Of a DNA stretch of 56,322 nucleotides, positions 3,474 to 52,185 are shown one piece after another. The DNA lies in NCBI GenBank assembly GCA_963575745.1, contig CAUYUJ010000096.1, forward strand, positions 62,001-118,322, read 5' to 3'. Under the pieces are notes generated by a model that made no database searches, had not been told where the DNA came from, and saw only the letters and a program-made list of their open reading frames with translations. A program made the position numbers and the translations under genes. Position 1 is the stretch's first letter; each line of letters begins with the position of its first letter. Source of the DNA: Prorocentrum cordatum (taxonomy: Eukaryota).

Positions 3474-3971
3474 CTACGAGCCCGCCGACCAGCGACCGCT
3501 CGAGGACGTCGGCCACCCGTCGTTGGAGATGCCAATGTCCATCCGTAGCAACGTCCTCGCATCGTCGTCGGTGATGTCCATGTCCGTGTGCATGTTCATC
3601 ACGTCTCTGATCTCCTCGTGGGGCTCCCGCTGGATGCGGAGGTACCGCGTCTGGTTGTCCCTGATGCTCTCCTCCACCAGGGCCCTCTGGAAGGACGGAT
3701 ACAGGAAATCCAAGTAGCCTTGGAAGAAATCGCAGTAGACGGTTGGGAGCTGATGGAGGCATCCCGTCCACTGGACTCCGGGCCCGAGAAAGTGTCGGAG
3801 ACTTCGCGCGTTGCCGTCTTGCAGCAAGCAATGTCTGAGGTCGGGCATGAACTCCACGTCGGAGAAAAATGATAAGAAACCGATGTACTGCACCGCCTCA
3901 CTCTGAGGCACAAGAACACCAAATATATGGAATATGGAAGCGCGCCGTCGGATGACGCTACTTGAGCTCAT
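3474..3971 (-). CDS. Hypothetical protein fragment of unknown origin
   Basis: 165-codon ORF with ordinary globular composition (FFQGYLDFLYPSFQRALVEESIRDNQ...); no motif recognised. Confidence 0.3.
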   Translation of the reverse strand: MSSSSVIRRRASIFHIFGVLVPQSEAVQYIGFLSFFSDVEFMPDLRHCLLQDGNARSLRHFLGPGVQWTGCLHQLPTVYCDFFQGYLDFLYPSFQRALVEESIRDNQTRYLRIQREPHEEIRDVMNMHTDMDITDDDARTLLRMDIGISNDGWPTSSSGRWSAGS

Positions 3972-4143
3972 GATCCCCGTTGCCTCGCGGCCGTGTCGGC
4001 CAAGACGGTAAGAGAGTCACTGTTTGCGTGCATGTTTTCCACAGATCCAGCGCCCACCAGTAGACTGTGACCATCACTATGGCTGCGAGCGTCACGCGGG
4101 CCGTAGGGAGAAATAGAAGGAACATACGGACTTATGGGCGGGT

Positions 4144-13031: not shown

Positions 13032-13033
13032 AT

Positions 13034-14886: not shown

Positions 14887-15094
14887 ACGGAAGTGTGGTA
14901 CAGCACTATGCCACGTGTTGCCTGTCCGATACCAAGCGAGAGAAGAGCCAATCCAAATACCTGCAATCGAATTAGTTGAATTAGTAATTGTGTGACAGTG
15001 AGCTTCGTCTTGCGAATATGGAGCGGAGCCGTGGGCTGGGCGGCCTCACGGTCCAGTGAGTTATAGAATGGAACCGAGCTGAACGGCCAGCTGC

Positions 15095-15131
15095 CTTGAG
15101 CCAGAATGGCTTGAGCCAAAATGGCTACGGA
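15095..15131 (-). other. Dinoflagellate spliced leader (22 nt, perfect) plus tandem 15-nt relict SL
   Basis: Minus strand TCCGTAGCCATTTTGGCTCAAG (15131-15110) followed by CCATTCTGGCTCAAG (15109-15095). Confidence 0.97.
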
Positions 15132-15490: not shown

Positions 15491-16324
15491 GGCAGCGGCC
15501 GCGGCCGCTTCGCCTGCGGGGGGGGGTGCGGGGGCGAGGCGCCGACATACGTCCAGAAGGTCGGCCCTATGAGAGCACGTCAATTGGGCCGGAGCCCGAG
15601 ATGCGCTTTGGATCCCTGTGTGATCCATGAGCGTGAAGCTCGCGGAGGAGGGGCGGCGACGACGAAGACGACGACGAGGAACAACAACCAAGACAAGTCG
15701 GCAAAAAGCCTACACTTTGGAAAAGGCCGGCCAAGAGCCAACGTTTACGCGTCAGCATGCATTCGGAGTGGCGGAATAGGAGCGAAGTAATGCGAGGTGC
15801 ACTATTCAACTGAAGGCATGCGCTCCTCAGGAGGCCTACCATAAATCGAATGATGATGCCCTGATTATTTTCTTCATGCATTGCCGACGATTGTGAATCT
15901 TTTACTGGGGTTGTCTGGCGAGCCAGAAACTCTGTCCATTACTGTCGAAATTCGGATTCACGCCATCAGCTCCAATAGCCAAGTCTTGTCTGTACTCATC
16001 TCTGACTACGCAATTTTCAGAAGATGTATACAACGCTTCTCCCGAATCCGCGGAGTCGTACTTGAGAGCCACTTGCTGCCTGAATCCGGGTGCCAATGTG
16101 CAACTGCACATTGCAATCTGCTGAGCGACCCTGTCGCATTATTCCACGTGACCTGGGCTGCAGCAGCGGGCCAATCATAATGTTCACGCAACTGAAATTT
16201 TCCCCAATCAGAGCTTGCCTCGGTAGGGTTCCTGGCGGATTCATATGGTTAGGTGAACATTGCCGCCGATTTCTGCGGCCCGCCCTGGTGCCCGGGTGCC
16301 TGGGTGCCCAGGTGCCCGGGCGAC

Positions 16325-16882
16325 TTCTAGCCCTATGGCCCTATAGCCTTCTAGCCCTATAGCCCTGTAGCCCTATAGCCCAACAGGCCTATAGCCCTAT
16401 AGCCCTATATCCTGATAGCCTTATAGCCCTATCGCCCTAGAGCCCTGAAGCTCTATAGTCCTATAGCCCTATAGCCCCATAATCCGATATAGCCCTATAT
16501 AGCCTTACAGCCCAATAGCCCTATAGCCTTGTAGCCCTATAGCCCTATATTCCTATAGCCATATAGCCTTATAACCCTTTAGCCCTATAGTCCCTATAGC
16601 TCTGTATGCCTATAGCCCTATAGCCCCATCGCCCTATAGTCCTATGGTCCTATCGCCCCAAAACCCATAGCCCTATGGCCCTATAGCCCTATAGCCCTAT
16701 AGCCCCATAGCCCCATAGCCCTATAGCCCTACAGCCCTATAGCCCTATGGCCCTATAGCGCTATAGCCCTACAGCCCTATAGACCTATAGCCCTATGGCC
16801 CTATAGCTCTATAGTTCCATAGCCCTGTAGCCCGACAGCCCCATCGCCCTATAGCCCAATAGCCACATAGCCCTCTAGCCCT
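16325..16882. repeat. (GCCCTATA)n 8-bp minisatellite
   Basis: Direct reading, many degenerate units. Confidence 0.95.
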
Positions 16883-17239
16883 AAGCAGACTTCGATTTTT
16901 TTCTCCATTGTCATGTGCTGAAGTATTGAATATCCTATGCCATCCCAGCGATCGTCTATTTCTGCAAGTGCCCGAGCATGTCCGCGACATGTTTTATGAT
17001 GTTCGGGCCAGCCGCTGCCTGCCAACTTGCGACATTCTGCTATTCCTGCCAACATATCAAGTGTATCCTTCAGTTCTTCAACGCTGCCTCCGAAGTCCGC
17101 CGACCCTTTGTGGGTCCTCAGGCGTGTGAGATTGTTCCCCCCCATAATCCCCCCATGGGGGCCACAAACCTCGAATTAAACCCCCCCCGGGCCGCGCCAG
17201 GTTCCGGACAATGCGCGCCAAGGGGGGGGAACGCCCCAA

Positions 17240-18319: not shown

Positions 18320-20005
<1,686 letters not shown>

Positions 20006-20907
20006 AGTCCCTCCTTGCCCGCCTGCTCGATCACAAGATAGACCCAAACATGTCGGCCCACGGGAGCTTCCGAGAACCACTTGCGGCGGGGGCCGAAACG
20101 ATGTCCAAGGTTGCACTGGCGCGTGTTCACGGGCGATCATGGGGAATCTGCCAGCGACGATTTCGACAATTCGAACCGCGCGCGCGCCGCAAACACTCCA
20201 TCAACACACCGGGCACAAAGGCGCACCGACACGCAACACCCATGCGCAAGCAATTACGTTATTTTCACGATACGTCTCTGTGTTTTGCTGAATGCTGGCG
20301 GTGTGCCCGTGGTGCGCCTGCGTCGTGGTGCTCGCGAACGTGCGTTTCCAATGGCAGCGCCCCCGCACAAACGATAGCTCGGTAACGCGACAGGAGAACT
20401 CTAAACTCAGGCCATGCAAGAATATTCCTGGCGTCCATATCCAGAATTCGTCAAATTCATGTTCATTGTAAATTTGGCAGCAATTCCGTTTTGCAAATAT
20501 GAACTCAAGAAACACGCGCCCCTACCAGATGGTTTTTCCGCCCTTGCCAGATGTGCAGTCGCCCACCCATCAGAGCCCCCACCCCCGATCAAGCTCTCCT
20601 TTGTCTCCCCCCCCCGCCCGGCCGTCCTCTTGCAATCAAGATGCGTCTGCTTCCTCCCGGGTGTGAACGATGGCTTCCGTCACTCTCCCCTCGCTCTGAT
20701 CCCTTGCGCCCGGAGCCCCCCGCAAAACGCCCCAAGCCCCGTGGGCATCTTTGAAAATTGCGAGCGTTCCCTGCGTCAAAACACACACGAAACATATTCG
20801 GTTGCAGCGCTACCCCCCGCCACTCCTCCGCCCCCGTGATGTCTTGGCCACCGAATCTCCTCAAAACGCACCCGGTGCCCCTATGTTCGACAAAATTGCG
20901 GGCGTGT

Positions 20908-21091
20908 TGTGGCAGCAGCGAGATGAGCGGATGCTTTTGCCTTGAGCCAAATCGGCAAACAACAGTACTGCCTTCTCTAGCTGACCTCTGCGTCTGAAAC
21001 AAACGAGTTCCCAAACTCGCTCTCATGACATGATCAACAGAAAAGACCATTAAGCTAAACCTATAATACCGAAATCAGGAAGCCTGTCACA
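20908..21091 (-). repeat. 3' LTR (184 bp)
   Basis: 181/184 identical to 30868-31051; termini TGTGACAG...CTGCCACA. Confidence 0.97.
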
Positions 21092-21181: not shown

Positions 21182-24100
21182 CTAGGAAGGTGAGTGAGAA
21201 AGGGGGGTCGTCCCGGAGGCCAACCCCAGGGCTGACTGAGCTGAGACAAACTCCGCCCACGATATCAGACGGGAGTCGCCGTCGAGGGTCCTTCTCGAAG
21301 CAGCATGGGATCGGTCCTTCGCACCGGGCTGCTCCTTACGACGGGCCATCTCAGCGCCCTCGTCTATGAGTACCAGCCGACCGTTGGCCAGCAGATTGGC
21401 CAGGGCGGCGTTGCTCTTGCTCACGTCGTCCTTCGTGAGTGCATCCACTGGCATCCTGCCGTGTGGCACCCACCGCACATGGCCCCGGGCTCTCTCGAGG
21501 GTCTCGCAAACCCCCGCCAGGTCCAGGGCGGTGCGCCTGTCTCGGGCACTGGCGTTGCCCTCCTTGAGCATTGTGTCGTAGATGCTTTTTGCATCTACTA
21601 CATGAACTTGATCTACTCGGCCGCCTAGTCGACAGTCCCTCCGGAGAACTGTCGTGAATGGTCCTGAACCCCTGGACGTGTCATTCACATCTACATCTCT
21701 GAAAACCACATCCCGGTACAAGACCTGCAGAAACTCTACTTCCGCCACTGCGGCAGAGAGGGCCTGGGTTTCCCCCGCCAAGGTCGACGAGACCTTCCTA
21801 CGCAACTTAGAGCTACGCCATCCTAACACGGAGGCCTTCACGGCGCAGTTATCCAGCACGCTCCTGTCCGTGGCAAGGATCATCCACGCACCCTGGGTGG
21901 GGTCTTCGGGGAGACCCCTCTCGTCCACAAGCCCTTCGTTAGCTCCAACACCTCCAGCATTCGAGAAGGACACAAACGCCATGCGGTCAGGGTCGAGCTT
22001 CCAAATGCTGAGGCCTCTGGAGGCCGTCGACCTCAAGTACCTCACCATACGATTGGCGATCGTGACGTCGCCGGTCGTAGCTTCCTTAAGACTACTAGCC
22101 ACAATGCTGGCAGCCCCTGCCGCCTCGGGTCGCGTCTCTCGACCGACCCAGTTAAGCTTATATATCAGGGAACGGAGGGACTTGAACTCTGCGGGAGTGA
22201 GAGGTGCTTTCTTTAGCCCGAGCCTCCCGCGCTCCATGCTCACTGGCCTGACCTCCTCTAGTATGTACTTCTCTTGATCGATGAGGGTCCGGTGGGGAGC
22301 AAACGACACGCGCCGTCCGGCGTGCTCGACTGGCCCCTCGTGGCAGTCGCGGTACTTCCCGAATTTGAACCGGGACTCGAGCACCTGACGAATCCAGGTG
22401 CGGGTCTCCCGAGAGCTGCTGGATATGAAGAAGTCATCCACTTCTAGAAGAATCATGTTCAGAATCGCCCCGTCGGGGGCGTACCTAATCCACCAGCACG
22501 GTTCAAGTAGGCTCCTTACGAAACCCTGTTTCTGCAGAAACCCGACCACGGTTTTCCTCCAAGCCAGGGGGGCATCGTCGAGCCCATACACGTTAACAAG
22601 CAAACGGATCAGGGACCCCTTTTCCACTCGGATCCCCTCGCAGGGTTCCACGTAAATCTCGCCTTGGGTCCTCTGCACCGGGTTCGATTGGCAGAACGCG
22701 TTTTTGACATCGGCTATGTCTCCTAGATGACCCAAGTTCATCATGACTTGGACAAACATGAGGATTGACGTGGTCTGAGGTGTGGGCGAATACACGAACA
22801 ACGAACCGGCATCGGGGTCCTTATGCCCGTGGACGCACCATCTCGACTTGGCAGCAGGCTCGGCGAAAGTGCCTTCCACCGGCTTCCACCGACGCACCAT
22901 TCGACTGGTGATTATCCGGTCTGGACAGGTGCGCCTGACGGCCTCCGCCTCCCTAGGAGGTATCACTTCCACCGCCCCCGAGCCCATCATGTTCTGCCAC
23001 TCTTTATCATCAGACATCTCGAACTTCGCTCTCTCCGCTGGGCTGAGCTGTTTGAGGGGAATCTCTCCCCCACGGCTGGCCGCCAGAACCCCGAAGTCCC
23101 CGGAGCTCTCGACCCTTTCCACGAGTCCCAGAAAACACCCGTCCTCGCTGGTCTCCACGAGAAACGAAGTCCCGCCCTCGACCTCGGTCCGGGCCTCAAT
23201 CTCGGCCACCCGTCGTCCAACAAGCTCTCCCCTGGGCCTCGACTGGCTTCTCTCCCTACTGTCTCTGGCGGCGGCAGCGGCACCGACAGCAGCAGCAGAC
23301 GACGACGGAACCGAGTCGGCCTCTTCAGCTGCTGGCTGCTCCAGGCCCGGGGGTGGCTCCACTCGTGGCCGCTTAGCCTCGCTGACCTCTGGTGGACAAC
23401 TGGCGGACCGAACTCCTGGCACCTCGTCTCCCAGGGGTCTCCGAAAACAGTGAGGGGCGTCGCTCGGCTGCTCGAGCTTGGCCCTAGCTGGCCTGACCGG
23501 CGCGGCCGGAGAGGGCGAGGGAGGAGACGACGCCACAGGGAGAGGAGGTTCGGAGGACGGAGGATCGACAGCTTCTCCGGAGATCCCTTTGTCGGGCCCC
23601 GGGACCGCCTGGGGATCCCCTTCGCCCGGAGGCGTGCCAGTACCTGACGATTCTCCTGGCTCCTCGATGCTCTCTGAAATCGAGGGGAGTCGTGTCATCT
23701 CGGACCCCGCGTTGGCCACCGCCGAACCCCCCGCCGATGATGGCCTGGACCGAGGACCCCGCGACCGGAGAAGAGGAGGCCCCGAACCGATGGGATCAAA
23801 ACCACGACCCACGGAGGGAGGGCCCACTGGGCCCGAAGGCTCGGCCACCTCGGACCTGACCCCGGGTCCCGCCAACTGAGGGGCAGAATCCGATTCTGGC
23901 GACAGAGGTTGATCCCAGGCCTCTTCGGGAGGGGGGCCTTCTCGCTGCACGTCCACGGCTGACGCTCGCCTAGACTGCGCCTGGGCCATGAGCTCGGACC
24001 ACTGTGGATCTTGGGCTACTTGAATCCCGAACTCCTCTTCGGGACTAGCGTGCCGCGCCTGTTCGGGGGAGCACTTCCATAGTCGGGCTCTCACTGCCAC

Positions 24101-27100
24101 CCAGACTTTTCCCCTCTCGGCCAACACCGCGACCCCGGGTCCCGTCCAAGCGTCCCGCCTGCGACCCAGCGTGTCCGCCCGCGACCCGGCCCGAGTGAGC
24201 CTGCGCCACACAAACACCCACTGACCAGGGCTGAAAACAGTCTGGGATGGCCCCTTGGCCTTGCTGGCCTTGTGTATCTTATCTCGGGCGGTGGTCTCCA
24301 TGGCCAGACGGCGAGCGACATCTCGGACTCTCTGAGAGCGGGCGAACTCCGCACCGGCAGAGTCCTGTTCGGACGGTGGCCGCAAGCAGTCTTGCCATCC
24401 GGGAAGGCCCAAGTGGTCATCCGACAGAATCTCATGCGGTAAGCGTGGGTTCTCTCCGAAAACCAACTGCATGGGCGAAAAGCCTCCCCGGTGCCAAAAC
24501 CTGTTTTTGTGGGCGCAGAGCTCATAGATGAGCTCGTCCAGTTCTTGCACGTCTCCGGGCAGAGCGGACCCGGCCTCGACCTCGCTTTTGATTCGTTCTT
24601 TGATCCATCCCCCGTGGCGCTCAACCCGACCGTTCTGCCAGGGGGAGTTAGCATCGCAGACGTGGTGCAGTACCCCCCATTGCTCTAGGCCGCGAGCAAA
24701 TCTCTCTTCGAACTCTGGGCCCCCATCTGAGAGAAGAAAGTGAGGAGCGCCGAATGGCCTTATCCAGGCTGAGACGAACGCGCGCCACACAAGAGAGGCC
24801 TTGGGTTCCTCGACCCGCACGCATATCTGCAGGTTGGATCCGTGATCGACGATCTTGAGATAGGGCAGGACCTTGTCCTGATATGGAACATAAAACAAAT
24901 CGACGCCCACAATGTGGTTAAAACGAAAAGTCCGCGGCATGGCGACTCGGCGATGACTGCTTGACCGAGCCCGCTCGGCACACTCTGAGCACTTAAAGGA
25001 GTCTCGAACCCACTTCAGAATGTGGACCTTGACTCCCCCGGCTCTCAAGACTCGCACGAATTTCCTATTGCACGGGTGTCCCATGTTAACGTGCAACCGC
25101 AACGCCAGCCTCTTTTCGGTCTCCGATGGGTCCGGAAGGGGTTCGCTCACCTTGACACTGCTGGGAAGCCTAGTCTCGGGCACATCTTCGTCCTCACTCC
25201 CTTCCGGATCCTCCTCCTCGGGGCCCAGGCCTTCATCTCCCTCAGGAAAGTCTCCTTCCTCGTACTGGGCCCAAGTCACCGGCCGTGGTCGACGAGGTCC
25301 GCTCCATTCTTCTGTCACTGCGCGAGACACGGCCTCCGCAAAGGCCGGAGGATACTCCTGGGCAGAGGAGGTCCTGCTCTTACCCTCGAGCAGCACGTGT
25401 CTGTGGTCCCCCGGACAGAGGTGCCCCTCGAGGATCTCTTGGAGTCTGGGGTGGTTCGTTAAGATCCCGGTCGGTTTCTTGTTTAACCCATCTCTGGTCA
25501 CACTCAAACCAAAGGTGCACATGTCAACCCGCGTCCTGCGGACCCCGGGTAGGTTAGACACGAGCTGAACTACCTTAGTTGCCCACGAACTCGCGAACAG
25601 AGGGTGTTCAAAAGCAAAGTACCGGCCTTTCGCTACCCGATCGCTAGCGATCTCCATGCACAGAATAAGATCGTTTATGCCCTCGACGATCGCTCGTTTC
25701 CATTTGATCGGATCGCGAGCGGCCTGACTGATCCTGCTGATGATCGAAAATACTCGACAAGGTGGGCAGAGCCAGGTCAGCTCGGGGTCGTCTCGGTCGA
25801 GGGCCTCCCAAAGCTCCCTGCGGTCCTTGGGAATCCGGGAGTCCCAGCCTTGGGCAATATCCCAACTGGCCCTGGGACCCAGCGCCCCCCCCCGACGCTC
25901 GACCCTGGGAGCAATCCTAGGGGGAAAAAACACTTCCATAAAGGCCGTCCCCCTCTTACGTGGCAGGGCGCGGTCTAATAGCACCGCTGTCTCAGAGTCG
26001 TCCGGGGCCGAAACCATAGCCTCCAGGGAAGCTCTGACGCGGGGAGGGCACGACACCTCGTGATCGTCATTGACGACATCCCCCAACAACCATTCGGCTC
26101 CCTCAAACTCGGCCGAAACCCGGTCTGGGAACCCCCCGGCGTCAGCCCCCGCAAGTCTCTCCTTGGCCCGTCCCCGGGGTTGAGATCCCGCGAGACGATC
26201 TTGACTCACCAATTCTCTCGCTGTCGGAACCGTGTCCTCAGTCAGAAATATCGGAAAGCAGGAAGAGGAGTTATGGAGAGGAGAGGTGGAAGGAGTCAGA
26301 GAGCAGGGACACGAGGAGCGACACTTCTCCGCACCTGGCGCAACAGAAGCAGTGCAGCCGCCTCGAGAGAAGACGGCACCAAGGCCTAGCGAACGACCCC
26401 TCGGCCGTTCTGCTCCACTACTGGCTCGTCCTAGGTCCCTGGGCCAGAGCTGCTGATGTCGCTCATGTCGCTCAGGACCTCCCAGCCCGCTGCGGGACTC
26501 TCCTCCTCTGGTATGGAATAGAGACTGCCCACGGTCGTCGCTGACGTCGTCGTTGTCCCCGTCGTAGTGAGTCCGTCCCGCTCGCCCAGCGGCTGGTACG
26601 ATTGGGGTGCCTGAGCTGGCTGCGACGGCATACTCTGCTGTGCTGCCGGCGGCTGACCCGTCGGTGGTGCCGACTGCGCTGGCTGCTCGCTGCCACTGCT
26701 GCCCGCCCCTGCCGCTCCCGCTGGCGACTCGTACCATGGATCCCCCATCTGCCAGGCTGGGTTCGCCTGCCCTGTGTTCATCACCTGGGCGATGGAAGCG
26801 ACGGCCGTCCCGATGTTCACCACCATGTACCCGATCTGCTGGAGTGCCGTCTCCACGTTGTTCACCGCGCCGACAAGGCCATTGATGGACTCCTGTAGGG
26901 TGTCCAGACTCTCCGCGAAGCTCTCGAACGTCCCCAGGATGTTCCTGATGTGCTGGATGCCCTGGAAGATCTGCCGCAGACCCTCCTGGGTCTCGCTGGG
27001 CACACTGAGCGCCTGAGTCGCCACAGCCGTCATCTGATCCAGAACCGACTGGATCTGCCCAAACGCTCGAATGCCCTCCGGCACCTCCTGCAGCTGCCAT

Positions 27101-27304
27101 TGGAGGCTCTGGAGGAGCCCAGCGAGCTGGTTGACCGTGGTCAGCGCCGCGCCCCCCGATCGGAAGCCCGGGTCCTCCTGGAGGTACTGGAGCATCCTCT
27201 GGGAGTTGGCCGCGGCCTGCCTGGCTGCTTCCGCTGCCGACGGAGGTGGTGGCTGATCTCCTCCTGGTCCTCCTTGCTGGCCGACTGGGATCCACTCGAT
27301 CCTC
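21182..27304 (-). CDS. pol: Pol portion of the copia polyprotein: spacer, MTase-like domain, integrase, Pro-rich linker, RT, RNase H
   Basis: Part of the 2314-codon frame; IN LHVNMGH...CSEC, VGVDLF, LSDGGPEF, NGRVERHGG; RT AKSRWCVHGHKDPD, ADVKNAFCQ, VYGLDDAP, EVDD, FKFGK; RH SFSNAG, SSTLAGETQA, VDAKSIYD, VDALTK. Confidence 0.92.
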   Translation of the reverse strand, partial: EDRVDPSRPARRTRRRSATTSVGSGSSQAGRGQLPEDAPVPPGGPGLPIGGRGADHGQPARWAPPEPPMAAAGGAGGHSSVWADPVGSGSDDGCGDSGAQCAQRDPGGSAADLPGHPAHQEHPGDVRELRGESGHPTGVHQWPCRRGEQRGDGTPADRVHGGEHRDGRRFHRPGDEHRAGEPSLADGGSMVRVASGSGRGGQQWQRAASAVGTTDGSAAGSTAEYAVAASSGTPIVPAAGRAGRTHYDGDNDDVSDDRGQSLFHTRGGESRSGLGGPERHERHQQLWPRDLGRASSGAERPRGRSLGLGAVFSRGGCTASVAPGAEKCRSSCPCSLTPSTSPLHNSSSCFPIFLTEDTVPTARELVSQDRLAGSQPRGRAKERLAGADAGGFPDRVSAEFEGAEWLLGDVVNDDHEVSCPPRVRASLEAMVSAPDDSETAVLLDRALPRKRGTAFMEVFFPPRIAPRVERRGGALGPRASWDIAQGWDSRIPKDRRELWEALDRDDPELTWLCPPCRVFSIISRISQAARDPIKWKRAIVEGINDLILCMEIASDRVAKGRYFAFEHPLFASSWATKVVQLVSNLPGVRRTRVDMCTFGLSVTRDGLNKKPTGILTNHPRLQEILEGHLCPGDHRHVLLEGKSRTSSAQEYPPAFAEAVSRAVTEEWSGPRRPRPVTWAQYEEGDFPEGDEGLGPEEEDPEGSEDEDVPETRLPSSVKVSEPLPDPSETEKRLALRLHVNMGHPCNRKFVRVLRAGGVKVHILKWVRDSFKCSECAERARSSSHRRVAMPRTFRFNHIVGVDLFYVPYQDKVLPYLKIVDHGSNLQICVRVEEPKASLVWRAFVSAWIRPFGAPHFLLSDGGPEFEERFARGLEQWGVLHHVCDANSPWQNGRVERHGGWIKERIKSEVEAGSALPGDVQELDELIYELCAHKNRFWHRGGFSPMQLVFGENPRLPHEILSDDHLGLPGWQDCLRPPSEQDSAGAEFARSQRVRDVARRLAMETTARDKIHKASKAKGPSQTVFSPGQWVFVWRRLTRAGSRADTLGRRRDAWTGPGVAVLAERGKVWVAVRARLWKCSPEQARHASPEEEFGIQVAQDPQWSELMAQAQSRRASAVDVQREGPPPEEAWDQPLSPESDSAPQLAGPGVRSEVAEPSGPVGPPSVGRGFDPIGSGPPLLRSRGPRSRPSSAGGSAVANAGSEMTRLPSISESIEEPGESSGTGTPPGEGDPQAVPGPDKGISGEAVDPPSSEPPLPVASSPPSPSPAAPVRPARAKLEQPSDAPHCFRRPLGDEVPGVRSASCPPEVSEAKRPRVEPPPGLEQPAAEEADSVPSSSAAAVGAAAAARDSRERSQSRPRGELVGRRVAEIEARTEVEGGTSFLVETSEDGCFLGLVERVESSGDFGVLAASRGGEIPLKQLSPAERAKFEMSDDKEWQNMMGSGAVEVIPPREAEAVRRTCPDRIITSRMVRRWKPVEGTFAEPAAKSRWCVHGHKDPDAGSLFVYSPTPQTTSILMFVQVMMNLGHLGDIADVKNAFCQSNPVQRTQGEIYVEPCEGIRVEKGSLIRLLVNVYGLDDAPLAWRKTVVGFLQKQGFVRSLLEPCWWIRYAPDGAILNMILLEVDDFFISSSSRETRTWIRQVLESRFKFGKYRDCHEGPVEHAGRRVSFAPHRTLIDQEKYILEEVRPVSMERGRLGLKKAPLTPAEFKSLRSLIYKLNWVGRETRPEAAGAASIVASSLKEATTGDVTIANRMVRYLRSTASRGLSIWKLDPDRMAFVSFSNAGGVGANEGLVDERGLPEDPTQGAWMILATDRSVLDNCAVKASVLGWRSSKLRRKVSSTLAGETQALSAAVAEVEFLQVLYRDVVFRDVDVNDTSRGSGPFTTVLRRDCRLGGRVDQVHVVDAKSIYDTMLKEGNASARDRRTALDLAGVCETLERARGHVRWVPHGRMPVDALTKDDVSKSNAALANLLANGRLVLIDEGAEMARRKEQPGAKDRSHAASRRTLDGDSRLISWAEFVSAQSALGLASGTTPLSHSPS
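25320..25945 (-). other. C5 cytosine DNA methyltransferase-like domain within Pol
   Basis: Ordered motifs FMEVFFPPR (I-like), WDIAQGWD (II/III), LCPPCRVFS (IV, PC), FAFEHP (VI), VDMCTFGL (VII), KKPTGIL (VIII), AQEYPPAFAEAV (X-like). Confidence 0.72.
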
Positions 27305-28111
27305 TCCGCACACCGTACAGCGAGAGCCACTTCCCCATTGATTCCCGTAGTGCTTGATGGCTCTGGGCGGATGGGGGCACCGGTCCGCGGGTGGTGCGGC
27401 GGATGCCTCCGGCTTCGGCGCTGGCTTCGGCGGTGGCTTCCCGGCTGCTGGCCTGGTCAACGGAGCGTCCCCGCACCCCGCAGCACGAGGGGGCACCTCG
27501 ATCCCGGCCGCGATCACCTCGGGAGGAGGTCCGTCGGGCGGTGGAGGAGTCGCTCCCGCCTGCACCATGGCTGCCGCCGCAGCCGCCGCCCCAGGAGGTG
27601 CCTGAGGAGGGAGTGGCACGGGGGGAAACTCCATGGCTGCCGCTGCTGCCTGCCAGCGCACTGGTCCTGGCCTTGCTCCTGGCTTGGGGCTTGGCCTGAC
27701 CGCTGCCCGAGCCGTCCTCTGAGCCTCGGCTTGTCCTGCACCGAAGGCCGCGTGATCGTACTGGATGATGTTCCCGCTCGGATCGGGCGCCCCCTGGAAC
27801 GGCCCCGCCAGAAGTACCTGCGTCGCTGTAGCACTCGAACCTGCTGGACTCCCGAGAGGGGGCAGCTCCAACTGCTGGCCACTCGATGTTCCTGGCGTCG
27901 CCTGGGGCATGGCAGCGTCGGCCTCGTCGAGGCCTGCGGTTGCCTGGTCGAACGACTCCGAGGACACATCTGACTCTGCGTTCCGACGTGCCAGAAACTC
28001 CTCGGTCGCCTGGGCTGCCTTGCCGGTGGTGGCCCTCTTCGGGCCCGCCTGGGCGGTTGCCGTCAACACGACAAGGATTGCTACACGAAGCCCTGCCATG
28101 ACTCCTTGCAT
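26431..28111 (-). CDS. Nested overlapping ORF (~560 aa after repairing one indel at ~27305): hydrophobic N-terminus, Pro/Ala-rich region, CxH...CxxC, amphipathic helical domain
   Basis: MQGVMAGLRVAILVVLTATAQAG...CPH..GNQWGSGSRCTVCG in one frame joins ERIEWIP...LQSLQWQLQEV...FESFAESLDTLQESINGLVGAVNNVETALQQI in the next; stop at 26431. Confidence 0.6.
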
Positions 28112-30722
28112 GGACGCTGGAGACAAACTGCGATTGCTGAAAGTTGCGCTGTTGGAAGCGTCGCTGATAGCTGCAGCTCGAGCCGATGGCTACGGATAGG
28201 ACCATGAGTGTGTGTGCCGTCAGGCACCACAACCTTACGGCGTTAACGACGAGGGCCTTAGTTCCCTGCTCAAGCGCCCGACACAGGTTTCGTGACACCT
28301 TCTTTCCCAGAGTTTCCCAAAGCTCCGAGACCCTGCTCCTACTCCTGGCTCGAGCGGTCTCCACTGTCGTCTCGTCCTTCTGCATCGCCTTAGCACTCGC
28401 TCGGGATCCTGAGGCAACTACTGATGACGAGCAGGCCGTCTGAGCCCGCGGCACGATTCCTAGAACTCCGTGCTCTCGTACTCCGAATTGCTCTGGGACC
28501 ACTCCGTCTGGTCGCCTGGGACCTGGGACGATGATGAGGACCGATGTGATGATGTACTTGCTGAGCTCGCCAGTCGCGTCCATGATGGGTGCTCTCTCGC
28601 CTGCTGACAGCTGGAAGGAAGTGGCCGCCAGGAAAGGATACTTCTCTAGCGCACTCGTCGGCGCCAAAAGAGAACCTGACACCGCGCATACGATATCTGC
28701 CATGCGGTGTCCCGAACTGAGCTTCTGTAAAGGAATGTCGCGCCTCAACTTGCTGGACGACAGCATATTCCTGGGCAGGTCGAGGGTGCGCCCCAGGAAG
28801 TCTAGCAAGTTGACGCTCAAAATATGCGGGACGTCCTCATTCAGGACAGTCGTCTCGACGATCCCGAGGACCCCGCCGAGGCACAGTGGATACAGCACGG
28901 TGCCGATCACTCGCGCCTCACCGCCGATGCCGTGTGCCTTCTTGGGCGCCTTGAACTCCCTCGGTACTGCGACGTAGCATAGCCCCTGCTTGGCCAGGGA
29001 CTCGGCCTCGAGGTTGAGGGAAGGCAGGCCGTCGATGTCGCTGCCTGCTCCAGGGTCGACCAAGCCCTGCGTCACTGCCGCATTCAGGAAAACATCCGTG
29101 GCCCTGACCTCTGCCTGCACCCGCTGCAGAACCTGCAGCTCGTCGCGCGAGATCACCGGGTAGTTGTTGCAGCCGTCGAACGTGTAGCCCGCCAGGCCCC
29201 GGCTTGCTGAGGCCTCCTTCCGATCTCGCGGAGGGTGAGGACACTCGCGATGCCAGTGACCTTTCTCCTTGCAGTTGTGGCACTTCGTTATCTTCATGAG
29301 CTTCTTGCGGTGTGCATCTTCGGACCTTGCTCCTCGATCTCCTGGCTCGCGTCGTCCTCCGCTGCGACCTGGCCGAGCATCTCGACCCTTGCCGCGGCTG
29401 CGGCCCTTGCCGGCACCGCTGGGGGGACGAGCGCCAAAGTACTCGCGGTCCTGCTTAGCCGCCCGCTTCAAGTCCTTGTTCTGCTTCCAGGTGCGCTTGA
29501 CCTGTCTCTCCATCTGCATGTATACCTCCTCGGCCTCGCCCTCAGAGATGTCTAGATCGTCGATCTCCGCCAAAATGGCTTGCGCGTCGCCCTCCGACAG
29601 GTCGTCGGAGTCGTCGTCTCCCTCCTCAGCATCTTCGTCGTAGTAGGAGTCGTCTCCGGCTTCGTCAGCCCCTGGGTTGGCCGTCGGGAACGACTGCTGA
29701 GGGTAGGACGAGGGAGGAGGGGAAAGAATCTGACCGCCCGCGTTGTCTCGGCCGACTTCTGCGGCGAGGACTGGATGCGAGCTTGTCCTACCCGGAAGTA
29801 GCTTCTCGCCGCTTCCGTAATCTAGCTGTCTCAGCGCCCACGATACTTGATCGTAGTCAAGGCTGCCGCGGGTGAGCGTCCTCAGGTTCTGCTGGCCCTG
29901 TGCTGACAAACCAGCACCTTCTTCCAGTAGAAAGCCCTTCAGCTTAGTAGACATCCAGATATCGTGGGTCTCGGCCTCGGCGAGCTGCTGGTCGCGCCTG
30001 ATGACGAACTGCGTCAGCGTCTCCTTGGACTCTCGCGTGCACTCGATGAGTGCTCGCCTTCCTGCTCGCCTGAGGTCGTCTCCCTCACGCTCGCCCGCCA
30101 TGGCGTCCATGCGGCGCAGGACCGCGTCCAGCCACTGCCCGCCGGTGATCACGTCGTCGCTGAGATCCTCGAACTTCGCCTGCATGGCCCAGTCGAACCC
30201 CTTCATCAGTTTCTCGTAGCGCCGCCAGACCTGGACATCCGTGCCCTGGTTCCAGCGCAAGATAGACTTCTTCCACAGTCTGTAGTGGGCCCAGCCGGGC
30301 CACGAGGGAGGATCGGAGAAGTCGCCCTTGGACCACTGGCTGGACGACCACTCCTGGCCTTGCCACTCCTGGCTGGGCCATCCCTGGTCGCGCGACCGCC
30401 ATTCTCGCTGCTGCCAGCTCTGATCCTTCCACTGATCTGAGCCGTCCTTGTCGCGCTTCCAGGGATCCGTGTCCTCCCACGGGTCCTTCTCTTCTCGTTG
30501 TCTACACGATCTCGTATCCGTCGAGCCTGCTGTCTCGCCGATAGTGTCCCTCACTACCTCTCTGACCAGGTCGCGCAGCTGCGCGCGGAACTGGTCCCCC
30601 TGCTCGACAACAGGTCCTCCTGACCCAGCGGGCTGACCGGCAGCGGCCGCCGGAGCTGGCGGTGGCTGCTCGGTGCTGCCCATCGTCGCATAGACACCAT
30701 CGTTGTTGTTGTCTGCCGGCAT
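27305..30722 (-). CDS. gag: Gag-protease portion of the copia polyprotein
   Basis: First ATG 30722; RESKETLTQFVIR capsid-like motif; CHNCKEKGHWHREC zinc knuckle (29241-29282); protease-like LVDPGA (~29046-29063) and ILSVNLLDFLG; frame as assembled stays open to 27141. Confidence 0.88.
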
Positions 30723-30851
30723 GCTCACGCCCGCCGTGGATCCACGCACTGCACGTCCTCGGAGGAGCGGCAGTCGCCTGGCCTCTCGAGCGGTCCCGAC
30801 GCCACCGCCCTAGCGGCGCCTGGGTCCACCCCTGCCGGCCATGGCTGACCA

Positions 30852-30867: not shown

Positions 30868-31051
30868 TGTGGCAGCAGCGAGATGAGCGGATGCTTTTGC
30901 CTTGAGCCAAATCGGCAAACAACAGTACTGCCTTCTCTAGCTGACCTCTGCGTCTGAAACAAACGAGTTCCCAAACTCGCTCTCATGACATGATCAACAG
31001 AAAAGATCATTAACCTAAACCTATAATGCCGAAATCAGGAAGCCTGTCACA
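30868..31051 (-). repeat. 5' LTR (184 bp)
   Basis: Matches 20908-21091; followed by PBS. Confidence 0.97.
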
Positions 31052-31773
31052 GTGTGGCGCTTCAAACTACAAGCGGGAGCTTTCGATGTCGGCCATGGTC
31101 GTCGTCAACCCCCACGCCCGGCCCCCGCGAAACCAACGCCCATCAGCTTAAACGTTTCCTGCTTCAGCGAGCAGCGGGAAAAGACTGGTTGGCGCTCCTG
31201 CGAATCGGTGGTATGCAGCAAAAAGCTGCGTACCGCAGTTTGGAATTCCACCAATCCACAACACATTGGGTCGGCGGATGTGGCGTCAGCCTGTAGAATC
31301 TTCCATTTCTCCTTGGTCCGTGCCGCAGGTTGTCTGATATTGCATACCTGTCAACATGCGGTCGCATATGGTTTCGAGCTTGAGACGATTTGCACATCCA
31401 TGTATTCGTCCAAGGCCTTCCAGCCTCGGTATGACTTTACGTGTGTTGGCATCCTCGCGCAGCGTCTGGTCTAAATTCGCACCTCTTGATGTCGAACTCC
31501 CAACGGTCGAGACTAACTCGCCGATTTGTGTGCTCATCCGAGAAATTCCTCACTCCATAATGAGTGGAATATTCATCATGTCTACGTGGCATTACTGTTG
31601 CCACACTCCACCAGAACAACAACCGAAACCACCTTCTAAACACTATCTTGGTGGCGTTCCGCGCCGATGCAGACAGGGTTGCACGTCGAAGCGAAATGAC
31701 TCAAAGCCTCACTCACACAAGACGTGCTATAAACAAATCTGTAAGTGCAGTGGGCGGAATAGCTGCAAACCCC

Positions 31774-43795: not shown

Positions 43796-44329
43796 ACTCA
43801 TGCTGCTTTCCTAGGGGCTCCAACTTCTAGGTAGGGTCGCACTGGGGTACTTCTTCTTCTTCCTTCTCGCCCACGTGTTCCCCGACAGGTTTCTCCCATT
43901 GCTCGGGGAATACGTGGTCCGATAGCTTGAGCCCGAAGCTCGGCCACATAGGCGTATCCTGAAATGCAGGGGGCGGCGGCGATTCGCCGTAGGCGTCTTC
44001 GATACATATATATATATATATATATATAGATGTTACATATATATATATATATATAGATGGATCTCTCTTTCTATATATCGGAGGTGAGGGGGTGAGATCG
44101 AAGTGGAACGGAGAGCCCCCCTACCGGGAAATCGATTTCGGTTTCGTGTTCGTGCGTGCCGTGCGGGCGAGGCGAAGCTGCGTGGGCGGGCGAAAGAAAG
44201 TCTCCTGTGGCTGAGGCGCGGCCGGAGCAAAAGAACCTTGACCGGGCGGCCGGTGCCCCGCGGTGTCCCGCCGGTGTCCCGCTCGGGGGCGGGTGGCGCG
44301 CGGTGTCCCGCCAGTGTCCCGTCGGTGTC

Positions 44330-45083
44330 CCGATGAAAATGATGACGATGATGATGCTGTTGATGATGTTGACGATGATGCTGATCATGGTGATGGTGGT
44401 GATGATGATGGTATCCCGATGATGATAATGATGTTGACGAAGTTGATGATGATGGTGGTGATGGTGGTGATGATGATGGTGCCCCGATGATGATGATGTT
44501 GGTGATGGTGCTGCTGAAAAAGATGATGGTGCCCTGATGAAAATGATGATGATCATGAAAATGTTGATGGTGATCCGATGATTTGATGATGATGAGGATG
44601 ACGATGAAGGTGTCCCGCTGATGTTGATGATGACGTTGCTGATGATGCTGTTGATGATGATGGTGATGGTGATGATGAAGGTGTCCAGATGATGATGATA
44701 ATGATGATGATGATGGCGAGGATGGTGTCCAGATGATGATGATGAGGATGAGGATGAAGTGATGATGGTGATGATTTTGATGAGGGAGGCCCAGTGATGG
44801 TGAGGATGATGATGATGTTGATGATGATGGTGTCCCGATGATGTTGATGATGCTGGTGATGATGATGATGGTGACGATGACGATGGTGTTCCGATGATGA
44901 TGATGATGTTGATGATGCTGATGTTGCCCATAATTATGATGATGGTGTCCCGATGATGATGTTGATGATGTGGTTCATGGCCATGGTGATATAATGATGA
45001 TGGTGTTCCGATTATGATGATGATGATGGTGTCCCGATGGTGATGATGTTCATGATGATGGTGATGATGATGGTGTCCCGATG

Positions 45084-45115
<32 letters not shown>

Positions 45116-45225
45116 GTTGATAATGATGGTGATGAAGTGATGATGATGATGGTGCCCCGATGATGCTGATGATGATGATGATGTTGATGACGATGATGCT
45201 GATGATGTTGATGATGATGACATTG
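44330..45225. repeat. (GAT)n tract with recurrent GGTGTCCC punctuation
   Basis: Direct reading. Confidence 0.93.
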
Positions 45226-45428
45226 GTTGTGATATCAGTTGTGATTTCGATAGTGAAATCGATAGTTAGACCGAATGTGAGATCGATGGTGAACTCGACC
45301 GTGGGATCGATAGTGAGATCGATCGTCAGATCCATTGTGAGATCGGTCGAATGCAATAGATCGAGTGTGATCGATCGAGTGATATCGATCGAGCGAGGTG
45401 AGATCGATAGTGATACCGATCGAGTGAG
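45226..45428. repeat. ~12-bp GTGAGATCGATA-type minisatellite
   Basis: Direct reading. Confidence 0.8.
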
Positions 45429-45498
45429 ACGTTGGTTCCCCCCCGAACCTCCTTATCACCCGAAGGAAGGTCGTATAGGTATTTATATATATATACAT

Positions 45499-45526
45499 AC
45501 TAGAACCACGCGCGCGCTACGCGCGC
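45499..45526 (-). mobile_element. Helitron-like 3' terminus (GC hairpin + CTAG|T)
   Basis: Minus strand GCGCGCG-TAG-CGCGCGC, 6 nt, CTAG, then T of an AT tract. Confidence 0.4.
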
Positions 45527-45684
45527 TCTTAGGTTCTAGCTTCGTCCGGGGCAACGGCCAAACAACGGACGAGGAGGTTGAAGGCTGAATGCACTTCGGT
45601 TATTCGTCGAGTTTCGCGGTCGTGGTTCGAAAGAGCTTTTGGGCGCTCCTCGCCCCCAGGCGGCCCGAGGCGGCCGAAAACGAC

Positions 45685-46389
45685 ACCTCTTCCTCGTCCT
45701 CCTCTTTCCCCCTGCTCTTGCTCCTCTCCTCCAAAATTTTCCTCCTCCCCCCATCGTCCCCTCCTTTTCCCCCTTCCTCTTCCTCCGCCCCCTTCCTCCC
45801 CTCCTCCTCCTCTTGCTCCTCCGCATCCTCCTCTTCCTCCTCCTCCGCCCCTCTCCTTCTCCACCTACTTTCCCTCCTCCTCCTCCTCCTCCCCTCTCCT
45901 CCTCCTCCTCCTCATCATCAACCATCACAGCATCATCTTCATCCCCTCCTCCTCCTCCTCCTCCTCCTCCTCCTCCTCTTCCTCCTCCCCCTCCCTCCTC
46001 CTCCTCGCCTCCTCCTCGTCGTCCTCCTCCTCCTCCTCTCACTCCTCCTTCTCCTGCTCCTTCTCCTCCTCCTGTTCAGACTACATGGCTCGCCAAACGG
46101 CACTGCGACGCCGCGCAAGCATTGGGCCACATCGGATAAAGGGAACACTCGGGGGAGGCCTCCCTCTTGCTCTTCCTCCTCCTTTTCTCCTCTTCCGCCG
46201 CATCCTCCTCCCCTCCTCCTGCTCCTCCTCCTCCGCCTCCTTCTCCTCCTCCGCCCTGCTCCTCCTCCTCCTCGTCCTTCTCCTCCTCCTCCTCCTCCTC
46301 CTCCCCTCCGCTCCTCCTCCTCCTCCTCCTTTTCCTCCTCCTCTTCCTCCTTCGCCTCCTCCCCATCATCATCATCATCATCATCATCC

Positions 46390-46421
<32 letters not shown>

Positions 46422-46582
46422 GTTATCACCCCCCTTCCCTCCTCCTCCCCCCGCCCCCCTTCTCTCTCCCCCCCCTCCTCCCCCCCTCGTTCTCCTCTTC
46501 CTCCTTTCCTCTTCCTCCTCCTCCTCCTCCTCGTCCATCTCCTGTTCCTCCTTTCCTCTTCCTCCTCCTCCTCCACCTCCTC
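45685..46582. repeat. (CCT)n/(CAT)n microsatellites
   Basis: Direct reading. Confidence 0.9.

Positions 46583-49059: not shown

Positions 49060-49101
<42 letters not shown>

Positions 49102-50821: not shown

Positions 50822-50875
<54 letters not shown>

Positions 50876-51680: not shown

Positions 51681-51714
<34 letters not shown>

Positions 51715-52145: not shown

Positions 52146-52185
<40 letters not shown>

What the first reader, a model, noticed from the sequence alone, without database searches (positions are those of the whole stretch)
30901..30916. Spliced-leader-like motif built into both LTRs
Seen: both LTRs (20941-20956 and 30901-30916) read GCCGATTTGGCTCAAG in element sense, 14/16 identical to the DinoSL 3' part GCCATTTTGGCTCAAG. 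It follows a T-rich stretch and lies 33 nt from the LTR 3' end. Established: first strand transfer needs 5'/3' R homology, and trans-splicing replaces the RNA 5' end. Inference: if the genomic RNA is trans-spliced at this AG, strong-stop cDNA ends in anti-SL, and the SL mimic in the 3' LTR supplies the homology for transfer. This would be an LTR adaptation to SL trans-splicing.
Basis: partly seen in the sequence, partly recalled or inferred. Interest (0 to 1): 0.78.

Follow-up and report, generated by a model that had tools for sequence, protein, structure and literature searches.

The report
Spliced-leader piece inside copia LTRs
Both end repeats of a jumping gene in a dinoflagellate genome carry a worn copy of the short leader that the host splices onto its messenger RNAs, and many distant relatives keep the same piece at the same place, so it is probably tied to how these elements copy themselves, although no RNA data were available to test that.

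Summary
GCCGATTTGGCTCAAG sits on the minus strand in both 184-bp LTRs of an intact 10.1-kb Ty1/copia element. It is 14/16 identical to the DinoSL 3' part, follows TGTTGTTT, and ends 33 nt before the LTR end.

It is more than a chance match or a decaying relic. Of 67 related copia loci (window included), 13 carry an exact SL word of 9-11 nt on the sense strand of the LTR; none does on the antisense strand. In 11 of the 13 the word is the SL 3' end, TGGCTCAAG. A hairpin of varying sequence usually precedes it, and an A-run like the dinoflagellate poly(A)-site motif AAAAG/C follows. Three of four published SmTCL elements of Symbiodinium microadriaticum carry the word inside their annotated LTRs.

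The proposed mechanism remains inference: no RNA run was listed, so neither the splice acceptor nor the poly(A) site is mapped. The conserved hairpin, and the fact that only 9-11 nt match, are not explained by the homology model alone.

This scan had already noted similar blocks on two other pieces of this genome. I found no description in print.

The parts
30868..31051 (-). 5' LTR (184 bp, TGTGACAGG...GCTGCCACA in element sense)
   Evidence: blastn of the LTR against the window, 100% and 98.4% copies; sequence
20908..21091 (-). 3' LTR (184 bp, 3 differences from the 5' LTR at LTR positions 24, 38, 45)
   Evidence: sequence
30901..30916 (-). SL-like block in the 5' LTR (GCCGATTTGGCTCAAG). Its last 11 nt, TTTGGCTCAAG, equal the SL 3' end. 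The terminal AG at 30902-30901 is the proposed trans-splice acceptor (inferred).
20941..20956 (-). SL-like block in the 3' LTR, identical to the 5' copy; the proposed acceptor homology for the first strand transfer (inferred)
30917..30924 (-). T-rich stretch TGTTGTTT directly 5' of the block (same at 20957-20964)
30894..30898 (-). AAAAG, 2 nt after the block (CTCAAG GC AAAAG); the same motif lies at 20934-20938 in the 3' LTR. It is the candidate poly(A) site, that is the R/U5 border (inferred).
   Evidence: AAAAG is the most shared 5-mer of related LTR ends, 24 of 40. AAAAG/C lies at the exact poly(A) site of dinoflagellate genes (passages of PMC2488372).
30854..30865 (-). Primer-binding site TGGTAGCGGAGC, 2 nt (GT) after the 5' LTR
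   Evidence: the same or near-same word follows the LTR in most related loci and in a published SmTCL
31052..31055 (-). Target-site duplication, ACAC in element sense; the other copy is at 20904-20907
   Evidence: flanks printed. The flanks are CA/TG-rich, so the exact length (4 bp) is not certain.
27141..30749 (-). gag-protease reading frame (CCHC knuckle; its tail overlaps the pol frame)
   Evidence: zf-CCHC E=0.0031, below Pfam's cut-off
21182..28126 (-). pol reading frame: integrase-like HHCC and D,D,E stretch, then RVT_2 reverse transcriptase, then an RNase H-like end
   Evidence: RVT_2 E=1.7e-12; the integrase is read from the sequence only and was not reported by Pfam

Best explanation
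The block is a piece of the host spliced leader that an ancestor of this dinoflagellate copia lineage took into its LTR, at the border between U3 and a very short R. It has been kept since because the element's RNA is SL trans-spliced at the AG that ends the block.

Proposed working (inferred):
1. Transcription starts upstream in the 5' LTR.
2. The SL replaces everything up to ...CTCAAG.
3. Polyadenylation in the 3' LTR occurs at the AAAAG just downstream of the block.
4. The two RNA ends then share [SL 3' part + the few bases up to the A-run]. In this element that is TTTGGCTCAAGGCAAAA, 17 nt.
5. Minus-strand strong-stop cDNA, once it has copied the last 9-11 nt of the real SL, can pair with the block at the RNA 3' end and jump.
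6. That part of the LTR is then re-made from the genuine SL in every round. This would explain why exactly TGGCTCAAG stays invariant while everything around it drifts.

Shown: the element's anatomy, the SL likeness, the strand specificity, conservation across deep copia lineages, the hairpin, and the neighbouring AAAAG. Inferred: the acceptor, the poly(A) site, the jump and the re-templating.
For: (1) Anatomy: an intact Ty1/copia with 184-bp LTRs 98.4% alike, a TSD, a PBS and RVT_2.

(2) Exact SL words of 9 nt or more lie on the sense strand of LTR segments in 13 of 67 loci and on the antisense strand in 0 of 67; about 0.6 hits are expected in the 11,458 nt examined. The words are TGGCTCAAG in 9 loci, TTGGCTCAAG in 1, TTTGGCTCAAG in the window, AGCCATTTTGG in L029 and GCCATTTTGGC in L059.

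(3) Gapped alignment to the 22-nt SL, score 18 or more: 8 of 42 LTR ends in sense, 0 of 42 in antisense, 24 of 820 internal windows, 5 of 840 shuffles.

(4) Motif discovery without a target puts GGCTCA (10 of 40; shuffles gave at most 9 for any 6-mer) and GCCAT (17 of 40) among the most shared words of LTR ends, beside AAAAG (24 of 40).

(5) In an alignment of 13 block regions the only invariant columns are TGGCTCAA, plus G at 90%.

(6) On the RT tree the block-bearing rows are four deep lineages of the window's clade (L007; WIN+L018; L036; an 8-row clade), more than 1.2 changes per site from the window.

(7) An A-run followed by G or C lies 2-37 nt after the block in most block-bearing LTRs. 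AAAAG/C marks the exact poly(A) site in dinoflagellates (PMC2488372). In the window only GC separates the block from AAAAG, so without the SL part R would be about 6 nt.

(8) Published, heat-induced SmTCL elements: TGGCTCAAG lies inside the authors' annotated LTR in 3 of 4 files, and as TTTGGCTCAAG in SmTCL3.

(9) Retroelement RNA of this genome does get the SL and is reverse transcribed with it: the LINE at 10227-15131(-) starts with a full SL plus a relic.
Against: No RNA evidence of any kind: no RNA holder was listed, so the acceptor, the transcription start and the poly(A) site are unmapped.

The 16-mer itself, at up to 2 mismatches, occurs in 0 of the 79 related loci; only its last 9-11 nt recur. 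A full-length strong-stop cDNA would therefore end in 11 or more unpaired bases, and the model needs an early jump.

Both LTRs of this element share the two non-SL bases (GA for AT). The cDNA of its last round thus did not carry SL positions 10-11 from a genuine SL.

A hairpin whose 3' arm is ...TGG(C) precedes CTCAAG in 11 of 12 block-bearing families. The homology model does not call for it and it might even hinder pairing. The window's own element is the one without it.

A 21-row subclade and the whole second clade lack exact SL words. They show TCTCAAG, CTCAG|GGGGCGC or AG|GGGGCCC instead, so an exact mimic is not required for these elements.

The loci are related and most come from one metagenome, so the P values overstate independence.

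In C. elegans the full-length Cer1 RNA simply escapes SL1 trans-splicing (PMC3315495), which is another workable solution.
Confidence: 0.4

Rival explanations
1. The conserved unit is a structural cis-signal: a hairpin plus CTCAAG at the U3/R border. It would serve transcription start, 3'-end formation (an upstream element used only in the 3' LTR) or RNA packaging. It may descend from an old SL capture, but the SL likeness plays no part in strand transfer.
For: CTCAAG in LTR zones is preceded by a perfect stem of 5 bp or more in 15 of 26 cases, against 18 of 376 elsewhere on the sense strand, 2 of 223 on the antisense strand, and 4.4% of all other LTR-end positions. The stems differ in sequence between families but keep pairing: GCCATC/GATGGC, GCCACG/CGTGGC, GCCAC/GTGGC, CCAAGCG/CGCTTGG, CCATGC/GCATGG. 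The second clade keeps AG|GGGGC(G/C)C without SL words. A conserved upstream box TTGACCA (7 of 40) fits a promoter-like layout.
Against: It does not explain why the invariant part equals the SL 3' end base for base in 12 families, or why other families keep the other SL half (GCCATTTTGG(C)) at the same place. The window's element keeps the SL T-run but has no strong hairpin. If AG|G were the transcription start, R in this element would be about 6-9 nt.
Confidence: 0.25
2. A passive by-product. Trans-spliced element RNA is sometimes reverse transcribed and leaves part of the SL in the LTR, once or repeatedly. The piece has no function and persists or recurs simply because the splice site stays the same.
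For: SL relics from reverse-transcribed mRNA are commonplace in dinoflagellate genomes (passages in PMC9651163 and PMC3942190) and occur in this window on a LINE. The window's block has two mismatches, as a decaying relic would.
Against: Neutral relics should decay at random, yet the same 9 nt are intact in lineages whose RT differs by more than 1.2 changes per site and whose LTRs otherwise do not align. No locus has more than 11 exact SL bases, and none has a fresh 22-nt copy, which repeated passive capture should sometimes leave. The covarying hairpin indicates selection.
Confidence: 0.15
3. A built-in leader. Transcription starts at or just before the block, so the RNA carries an SL-like 5' end of its own and needs no trans-splicing. 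The block would then be the 5' end of a conventional R.
For: For one Amphidinium gene, an SL-like genomic sequence at the exact splice site was said to allow a message with a leader but without trans-splicing (passage of PMC2488372). An SL inside a Symbiodinium RNA virus genome has been read as mimicry (passage of PMC9651163).
Against: The cap-proximal SL half, which a leader mimic should keep, is the least conserved part. In most families a family-specific loop and stem replace it.
Confidence: 0.08
4. Chance resemblance of a 16-mer to the SL.
For: Only one independent event in this window; 2 mismatches.
Against: About 0.03-0.05 such matches are expected per window. The recurrence in 12 further loci and in 3 of 4 published SmTCLs, always on the sense strand and at the same place in the LTR layout, rules chance out.
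Confidence: 0.02

Closest known systems
[quoted passage not shown]
   Same: An SL-derived sequence in genomic DNA on the sense strand, explained by reverse transcription of trans-spliced RNA. A textbook example, a full SL plus a truncated relic, lies in this window at 15095-15131(-).
   Different: Here the piece is inside an LTR, 135 nt from its start, and present in both LTRs. It is limited to the SL 3' 9-16 nt, is not stacked, and is conserved across deep lineages instead of decaying.
SmTCL1-4, heat-activated Ty1/copia-like elements of Symbiodinium microadriaticum (Chen et al., PMC5776459; whole text and supplementary sequence files read)
   Same: About 9-10 kb copia elements with short LTRs (118-254 bp as annotated). 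The one read (x16) has the window's TGGTAGCGGAGC-type PBS; SmTCL3's reads TGGTTATCAGCC. TGGCTCAAG lies inside the annotated LTR in 3 of 4 files, followed by an A-run.
   Different: No SmTCL protein or DNA was compared with the window here. The nearest proteins found in any database were 55% identical. The paper does not mention the SL: its text has 0 occurrences of DinoSL, and I saw none when reading it.
R region and R hairpins of retroviruses and LTR retrotransposons (first strand transfer; general knowledge, recalled)
   Same: A short sequence present at both RNA ends, next to the poly(A) site and often folded, that lets strong-stop cDNA jump.
   Different: Here the 5' copy would not be transcribed from the element at all but supplied by the host through trans-splicing. 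This is untested.
Cer1 of C. elegans (PMC3315495, passages)
   Same: An LTR element in an organism with SL trans-splicing, with an SL1 acceptor near its 5' end.
   Different: The 8-kb Cer1 RNA that encodes Gag and Pol is not trans-spliced; only a 2.4-kb spliced message was found with SL1 (and also without). No SL mimic in the LTR is reported.
SL-headed LINEs of this genome (this window, 10227-15131(-); earlier notes of this scan)
   Same: They show that retroelement RNA here is SL-capped and reverse transcribed.
   Different: LINEs copy the RNA to its 5' end, so a full SL at the element's very start is expected. No strand transfer or repeat is involved.

Membership tests
Ty1/copia LTR retrotransposon | Two direct long terminal repeats (TG...CA) flanked by a target-site duplication | tested here: met
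   184-bp LTRs, 181/184 identical, TGTG...CACA. ACAC lies on both flanks, though the TSD length is uncertain in a CA-rich flank.
Ty1/copia LTR retrotransposon | Copia-type reverse transcriptase (RVT_2) | tested here: met
   PF07727 E=1.7e-12, 47.9 bits against a cut-off of 31.6. 107 relatives at E<=1e-10, most listed rows with PF07727.
Ty1/copia LTR retrotransposon | Integrase upstream of reverse transcriptase | tested here: inconclusive
   Pfam reported no rve domain at E<=0.01. An HHCC-like stretch and D..D..E residues upstream of RVT_2 are read from the translation only.
Ty1/copia LTR retrotransposon | Primer-binding site complementary to a tRNA 3' end next to the 5' LTR | tested here: inconclusive
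   TGGTAGCGGAGC lies 2 nt after the LTR and is shared by many relatives. No tRNA gene was compared; the initiator-tRNA assignment is recalled.
Relict DinoSL of a retrocopy | Colinear match to the 22-nt DinoSL on the sense strand | tested here: met
   14/16 to SL positions 7-22, with the last 11 exact.
Relict DinoSL of a retrocopy | Lies at the 5' boundary of the retrocopy, often as a stack of full and truncated leaders | tested here: not met
   It lies at LTR positions 136-151, in both LTRs, with no stack and no SL positions 1-6.
Relict DinoSL of a retrocopy | Free to decay | tested here: not met
   TGGCTCAAG is invariant in 12 families whose LTRs otherwise do not align.
R region of an LTR retroelement | Present at both ends of the genomic RNA (between the RNA 5' end and the poly(A) site) | not testable with these tools
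   No RNA run was listed. The only indirect support is AAAAG 2 nt downstream, matching the published poly(A)-site motif.
SL RNA gene | Full 22-nt exon followed by a GT donor and SL RNA body | tested here: not met
   SL positions 1-6 are absent. The block is followed by GC, not GT. No Rfam family matched anywhere in the window.

The most novel reading that the evidence does not exclude
A whole lineage of dinoflagellate copia elements has handed the 5' copy of its R region over to the host. The genomic RNA receives its 5' R by SL trans-splicing. The LTR-encoded SL piece next to the poly(A) site is the landing pad for the first jump. The last 9-11 bases of that piece are re-written from the genuine host leader at every round of retrotransposition, which is why they never drift.
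Probability: 0.3. Interest if true: 0.85.

Novelty: new variant of a known kind. Interest (0 to 1): 0.7.

Why it matters
Dinoflagellate nuclear mRNAs are reported to receive the spliced leader (abstract of PMC6050394, seen in a search listing). Copia elements are reported as the most abundant retrotransposons of Symbiodinium (passage of PMC5890265). They have also been proposed as a source of the reverse transcriptase behind the massive retrogene load (passage of PMC6050394).

An LTR element needs the same sequence at both RNA ends, and trans-splicing removes the 5' one. How these elements solve that has, as far as my searches show, not been addressed.

A conserved SL piece between U3 and the poly(A)-site motif gives a concrete, testable answer. 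It also gives a sequence tag for annotating U3/R/U5 in dinoflagellate LTRs. And it offers an experimental handle, SL-primed RT-PCR on the heat-inducible SmTCL elements.

Tried and rejected
- Whole-genome search for other copies: no genome is held for this window.
- RNA evidence: no RNA holder was listed; one DNA run (X1) held 0.36 of the sampled words.
- Laying X1-X3 contigs on the element: 515 X1 contigs were laid, 68 of them 99% or more alike. Only 40 of 792 differences were printed, none in the block, so nothing can be said about variants of the block or copies converted to the exact SL.
- Viral contigs held no relative.
- A 23-nt stretch of the window spanning the block and AAAAG had no exact match in genome contigs.
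- The SL 16-mer with up to 3 mismatches in the 79 loci gave 12 sense and 2 antisense hits, all with exactly 3 mismatches and mostly coding or noise. The signal appeared only when LTR ends were read next to the PBS.
- MAFFT did not align the hairpin arms, so I made no formal covariation count. I used per-sequence folds and shuffles instead.
- Rfam: no family matched in the window.
- Rejected: an SL RNA gene (no GT donor, no 5' part); an internal AG acceptor as in retrogene relics (the G of GCC follows T here, and C or T in the relatives, so the SL's internal AG is absent).
- Earlier-notes look-ups by sequence and by place near the window gave nothing.
- The word search in Chen et al.'s supplement misses motifs broken by the spaces of the sequence blocks, and files 13-18 were not searched. 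The count of 3 of 4 is therefore a lower bound.

Full report
**The observation.** The 16-mer GCCGATTTGGCTCAAG occurs exactly at 20941-20956 and 30901-30916, both on the minus strand. With up to 2 mismatches the window holds 3 matches, against 0.05 expected from shuffles. The third match (15110-15125, minus) is the exact DinoSL 3' part. Its context reads as a full 22-nt leader followed by a truncated second copy. The window therefore supplies its own reference SL, identical from its second base on to the 21-nt DinoSL quoted in a passage of PMC9651163. The block is 14/16 identical to SL positions 7-22, and its last 11 bases (TTTGGCTCAAG) are exact.

**The element.** The repeats are 184 bp (20908-21091 and 30868-31051). 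They differ at 3 positions, start TGTG and end CACA in minus-strand sense, and are flanked by ACAC on both sides. Two bases after the 5' LTR comes TGGTAGCGGAGC, a PBS-like word. Two long minus-strand frames fill the inside.
- The first frame has a CCHC knuckle, weak in Pfam (E=0.0031).
- The second has RVT_2 at E=1.7e-12. Upstream of it is a stretch that I read as integrase; Pfam does not report it.

This is an intact-looking, fairly young Ty1/copia element of 10.1 kb on the minus strand. Its RT-RNase H part has 107 relatives at E<=1e-10, at most 55% identical. The named ones come from Symbiodinium species, Durusdinium, Prorocentrum and Amphidinium. The host is therefore a dinoflagellate.

**Relatives.** No whole genome is held and no RNA run was listed. 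I took an alignment of 29 RT-RNase H sequences to the metagenome collection and obtained 79 loci; the viral collection gave none. Many contigs are 8-9 kb and begin and end in the same 56-123 nt. I read this as the assembler collapsing the two short LTRs. They start about 124 nt before a PBS, so the 3' part of the LTR can be read in register.

**A negative result first.** At up to 3 mismatches there are 12 sense and 2 antisense hits in the 79 loci. All have exactly 3 mismatches and most lie in coding sequence.

**What does recur.** Read next to the PBS, the LTR ends show this:

| Locus | Sequence |
|---|---|
| L001 | GCCATCTTACTGATGGCTCAAG |
| L002 | GCCACGTGACGTGGCTCAAG |
| L003 | GCCACTTCCGTGGCTCAAG |
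| L019 | GCCACCGCCGTGGCTCAAG |
| L004 | GCCATCGATGGATGGCTCAAG |
| L041 | GCCACGATGTGGCTCAAG |
| L034 | CCAAGCGCATCCGTCGCTTGGCTCAAG |
| L036 | CCATGCTGACGTGCATGGCTCAAG |
| L007 | CCAGCGCGCTGCCGCGCTGGCTCAAG |

L006 and L018 have forms of their own. The pattern is the SL 3' end TGGCTCAAG, preceded by a stem-loop whose 3' arm is the ...TGG(C) of that word.

**Counts.**
- Exact SL words of 9 nt or more occur on the sense strand of the LTR segment in 13 of 67 loci (window included) and on the antisense strand in 0 of 67. About 0.6 hits are expected in the 11,458 nt examined.
- Sixty-six of the 79 relatives went into this count. L073 was dropped as a near-copy of L064, L057 and L066 for doubtful PBS calls, and the rest had no LTR segment of 80 nt.
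- L036 has the word in its 3' LTR but a T-to-G change in the 5' LTR segment that was counted, so it is not among the 13.
- Two of the 13 keep the other half of the SL at the same place: AGCCATTTTGG in L029 and GCCATTTTGGC in L059.
- Gapped alignment to the 22-nt SL reaches 18 or more in 8 of 42 PBS-anchored LTR ends on the sense strand, 0 of 42 on the antisense strand, 24 of 820 internal windows and 5 of 840 shuffles. At 20 or more the figures are 3/42, 0/42, 11/820 and 0/840.
- Word counting without a target ranks AAAAG (24 of 40), GCCAT (17), AGGGG and GGGGC (17) and GGCTCA (10 of 40) among the most shared words. Shuffles gave at most 9 for any 6-mer.
- All these tests treat loci as independent. 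They are not: they are related, and most come from one metagenome.

**Depth of conservation.** On an RT-RNase H tree of 71 rows (9 loci, among them L041, had under 400 aligned residues and were left out) there are two large clades. The rows with GGCTCAAG in the LTR form four deep lineages of the window's clade: L007; the window with L018; L036; and an 8-row clade. The nearest rows to the window are 1.2-1.5 changes per site away. A 21-row subclade has altered forms such as TCTCAAG in L009 and L026. The second clade has CTCAG|GGGGCGC, CTCGAG|GGGCGC or AG|GGGGCCC. In an alignment of the 13 block regions the only invariant columns are TGGCTCAA, with the final G at 90%. A neutral relic would not survive like this.

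**The hairpin.** The minimum-energy fold pairs the TGG of the word in 11 of 12 block-bearing families. With the 26 upstream bases shuffled, a perfect stem as long as the observed one is reached with P<=0.031 in 9 of 12; for L006 and L018 my strict Watson-Crick stem criterion found no stem, so no shuffle P could be computed. CTCAAG in LTR zones follows a perfect stem of 5 bp or more in 15 of 26 cases. The comparison figures are 18 of 376 elsewhere on the sense strand, 2 of 223 on the antisense strand, and 4.4% of all other positions of LTR ends. The arms differ between families while pairing is kept. The window's own element is the exception: it keeps the SL T-run (GATTT for ATTTT) and has only a 3-bp GCC/GGC option.

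**The neighbouring A-run.** In the window the block is followed by GC and then AAAAG. In most block-bearing relatives an A-run followed by G or C lies 4-37 nt downstream. [quoted passage not shown] They also found that the SL acceptor is an AG without further consensus (passages of PMC2488372). If the A-run is the poly(A) site, the block lies at the very 3' end of the element's RNA. In that case R of this element, counted from the AG, would be only about 6 nt without the SL part and 17 nt with it.

**Published elements.** Chen et al. described four heat-induced copia elements of S. microadriaticum. I read the whole text; it holds no occurrence of DinoSL. Their supplementary annotated sequences show:
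- TTTGGCTCAAG inside the 5' LTR of SmTCL3 (annotated 3866..4044).
- GATGGCTCAAG followed by ...CAGCAAAAGG inside the 3' LTR of file x17.
- GTGGCTCAAG inside the LTR of file x19.
- File x16 has the CAG|GGGCCCC form and the same PBS as the window.

That is 3 of 4. It is a lower bound, because the word search misses motifs split by the spaces of the sequence blocks, and files 13-18 were not searched. The transcript contigs annotated there do not reach the LTR ends in a way that shows RNA termini.

**Interpretation.** I consider four things shown:
- The block is SL-derived.
- It is strand-specific.
- It is conserved as hairpin plus TGGCTCAAG in several deep copia lineages.
- It sits between U3 motifs and a poly(A)-site-like A-run.

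It may even explain this without selection, because R and U5 of both new LTRs are copied from the RNA 5' end; this is general knowledge of reverse transcription. A genuine SL on that end would rewrite those bases in every round.

Several points weigh against the simple form:
- The SL 5' half is missing, so the jump would have to come early.
- Both LTRs of this element share GA where the SL has AT, so rewriting did not reach that far.
- The hairpin has no role in the model.
- Many relatives manage without exact SL words.
- Cer1 of C. elegans shows the alternative of leaving the full-length RNA unspliced.

I put the trans-splicing and strand-transfer reading at 0.4, a structural cis-signal of SL ancestry at 0.25, a passive by-product at 0.15, a built-in leader at 0.08 and chance at 0.02.

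**Novelty.** I found no paper describing an SL piece in dinoflagellate LTRs or an SL-based R region. The searches were made, and passages were read. Two earlier notes of this scan report similar blocks in copia LTRs on other pieces of this genome; my tests agree with them. Relict leaders in retrocopies are well known. A conserved leader piece built into an LTR next to the poly(A) site is a new variant of that kind, and it can be tested directly on the heat-inducible SmTCL elements.

Noticed in passing
window 10227-15131 (-): A LINE (Exo_endo_phos E=1.1e-10 and RVT_1 E=3.9e-15, plus an upstream ORF at 13453-14886) whose 5' end is a full 22-nt spliced leader followed by a truncated second copy (CCATTCTGGCTCAAG). 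It is set directly in a (TCC)n microsatellite.
   Followed up: partly
window 25127-25849 (-), within the pol frame: Between protease and integrase lie several hundred residues with no Pfam match even at E<=5. The nearest Atlas clusters are unnamed 'hypothetical protein' sets (best score 0.96). This is a conserved extra domain of unknown function in these long copia elements.
   Followed up: partly
window 27141-28126 (-): The gag-protease frame and the pol frame overlap by about 985 nt in different frames. The tail of the first and the head of the second are low-complexity, so the real frameshift or junction is unclear.
   Followed up: no
L066:1-123 and 7497-7619 (minus strand): The terminal repeat of this distant copia contig carries four tandem truncated leader ends (…TTGGCTCAAG GC TTGGCTCAAG GC TTGGCTCAAG TG TGGCTCAAG) on the strand opposite to pol.
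   Followed up: no
L013 and L026, 30-80 nt before the PBS: Both carry CCGTCAGCCATT, the SL 5' half with one extra C. In L026 it lies directly after TCTCAAG, as if two partial leaders lay in tandem.
   Followed up: no
LTR ends of L001, L002, L003, L004, L006, L013, L030, L047 and others: A shared U3 box TTGACCA (7 of 40 LTR ends) lies 41-57 nt before the AG of the block. The window has TTGATCA at the comparable place. It may be a promoter element.
   Followed up: no
LTR ends of L004, L047, L068, L070 and SmTCL3: The stretch between the AG and the A-run often forms its own hairpin that encloses the AAAAG (for example GCGCTT...AAGCGC, GGCACCG...CGGTGCC). This is reminiscent of poly(A) hairpins in retroviral R regions (recalled).
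   Followed up: no
window 5100-9000, 16250-16900, 18400-19100, 44300-56322: The rest of the window is dominated by microsatellites and short tandem arrays: (GGA)n/(GAT)n, 8-nt CCCTATAG-type units, 13-nt units, and GGCC-TCTTGG-type 21-nt units.
   Followed up: no
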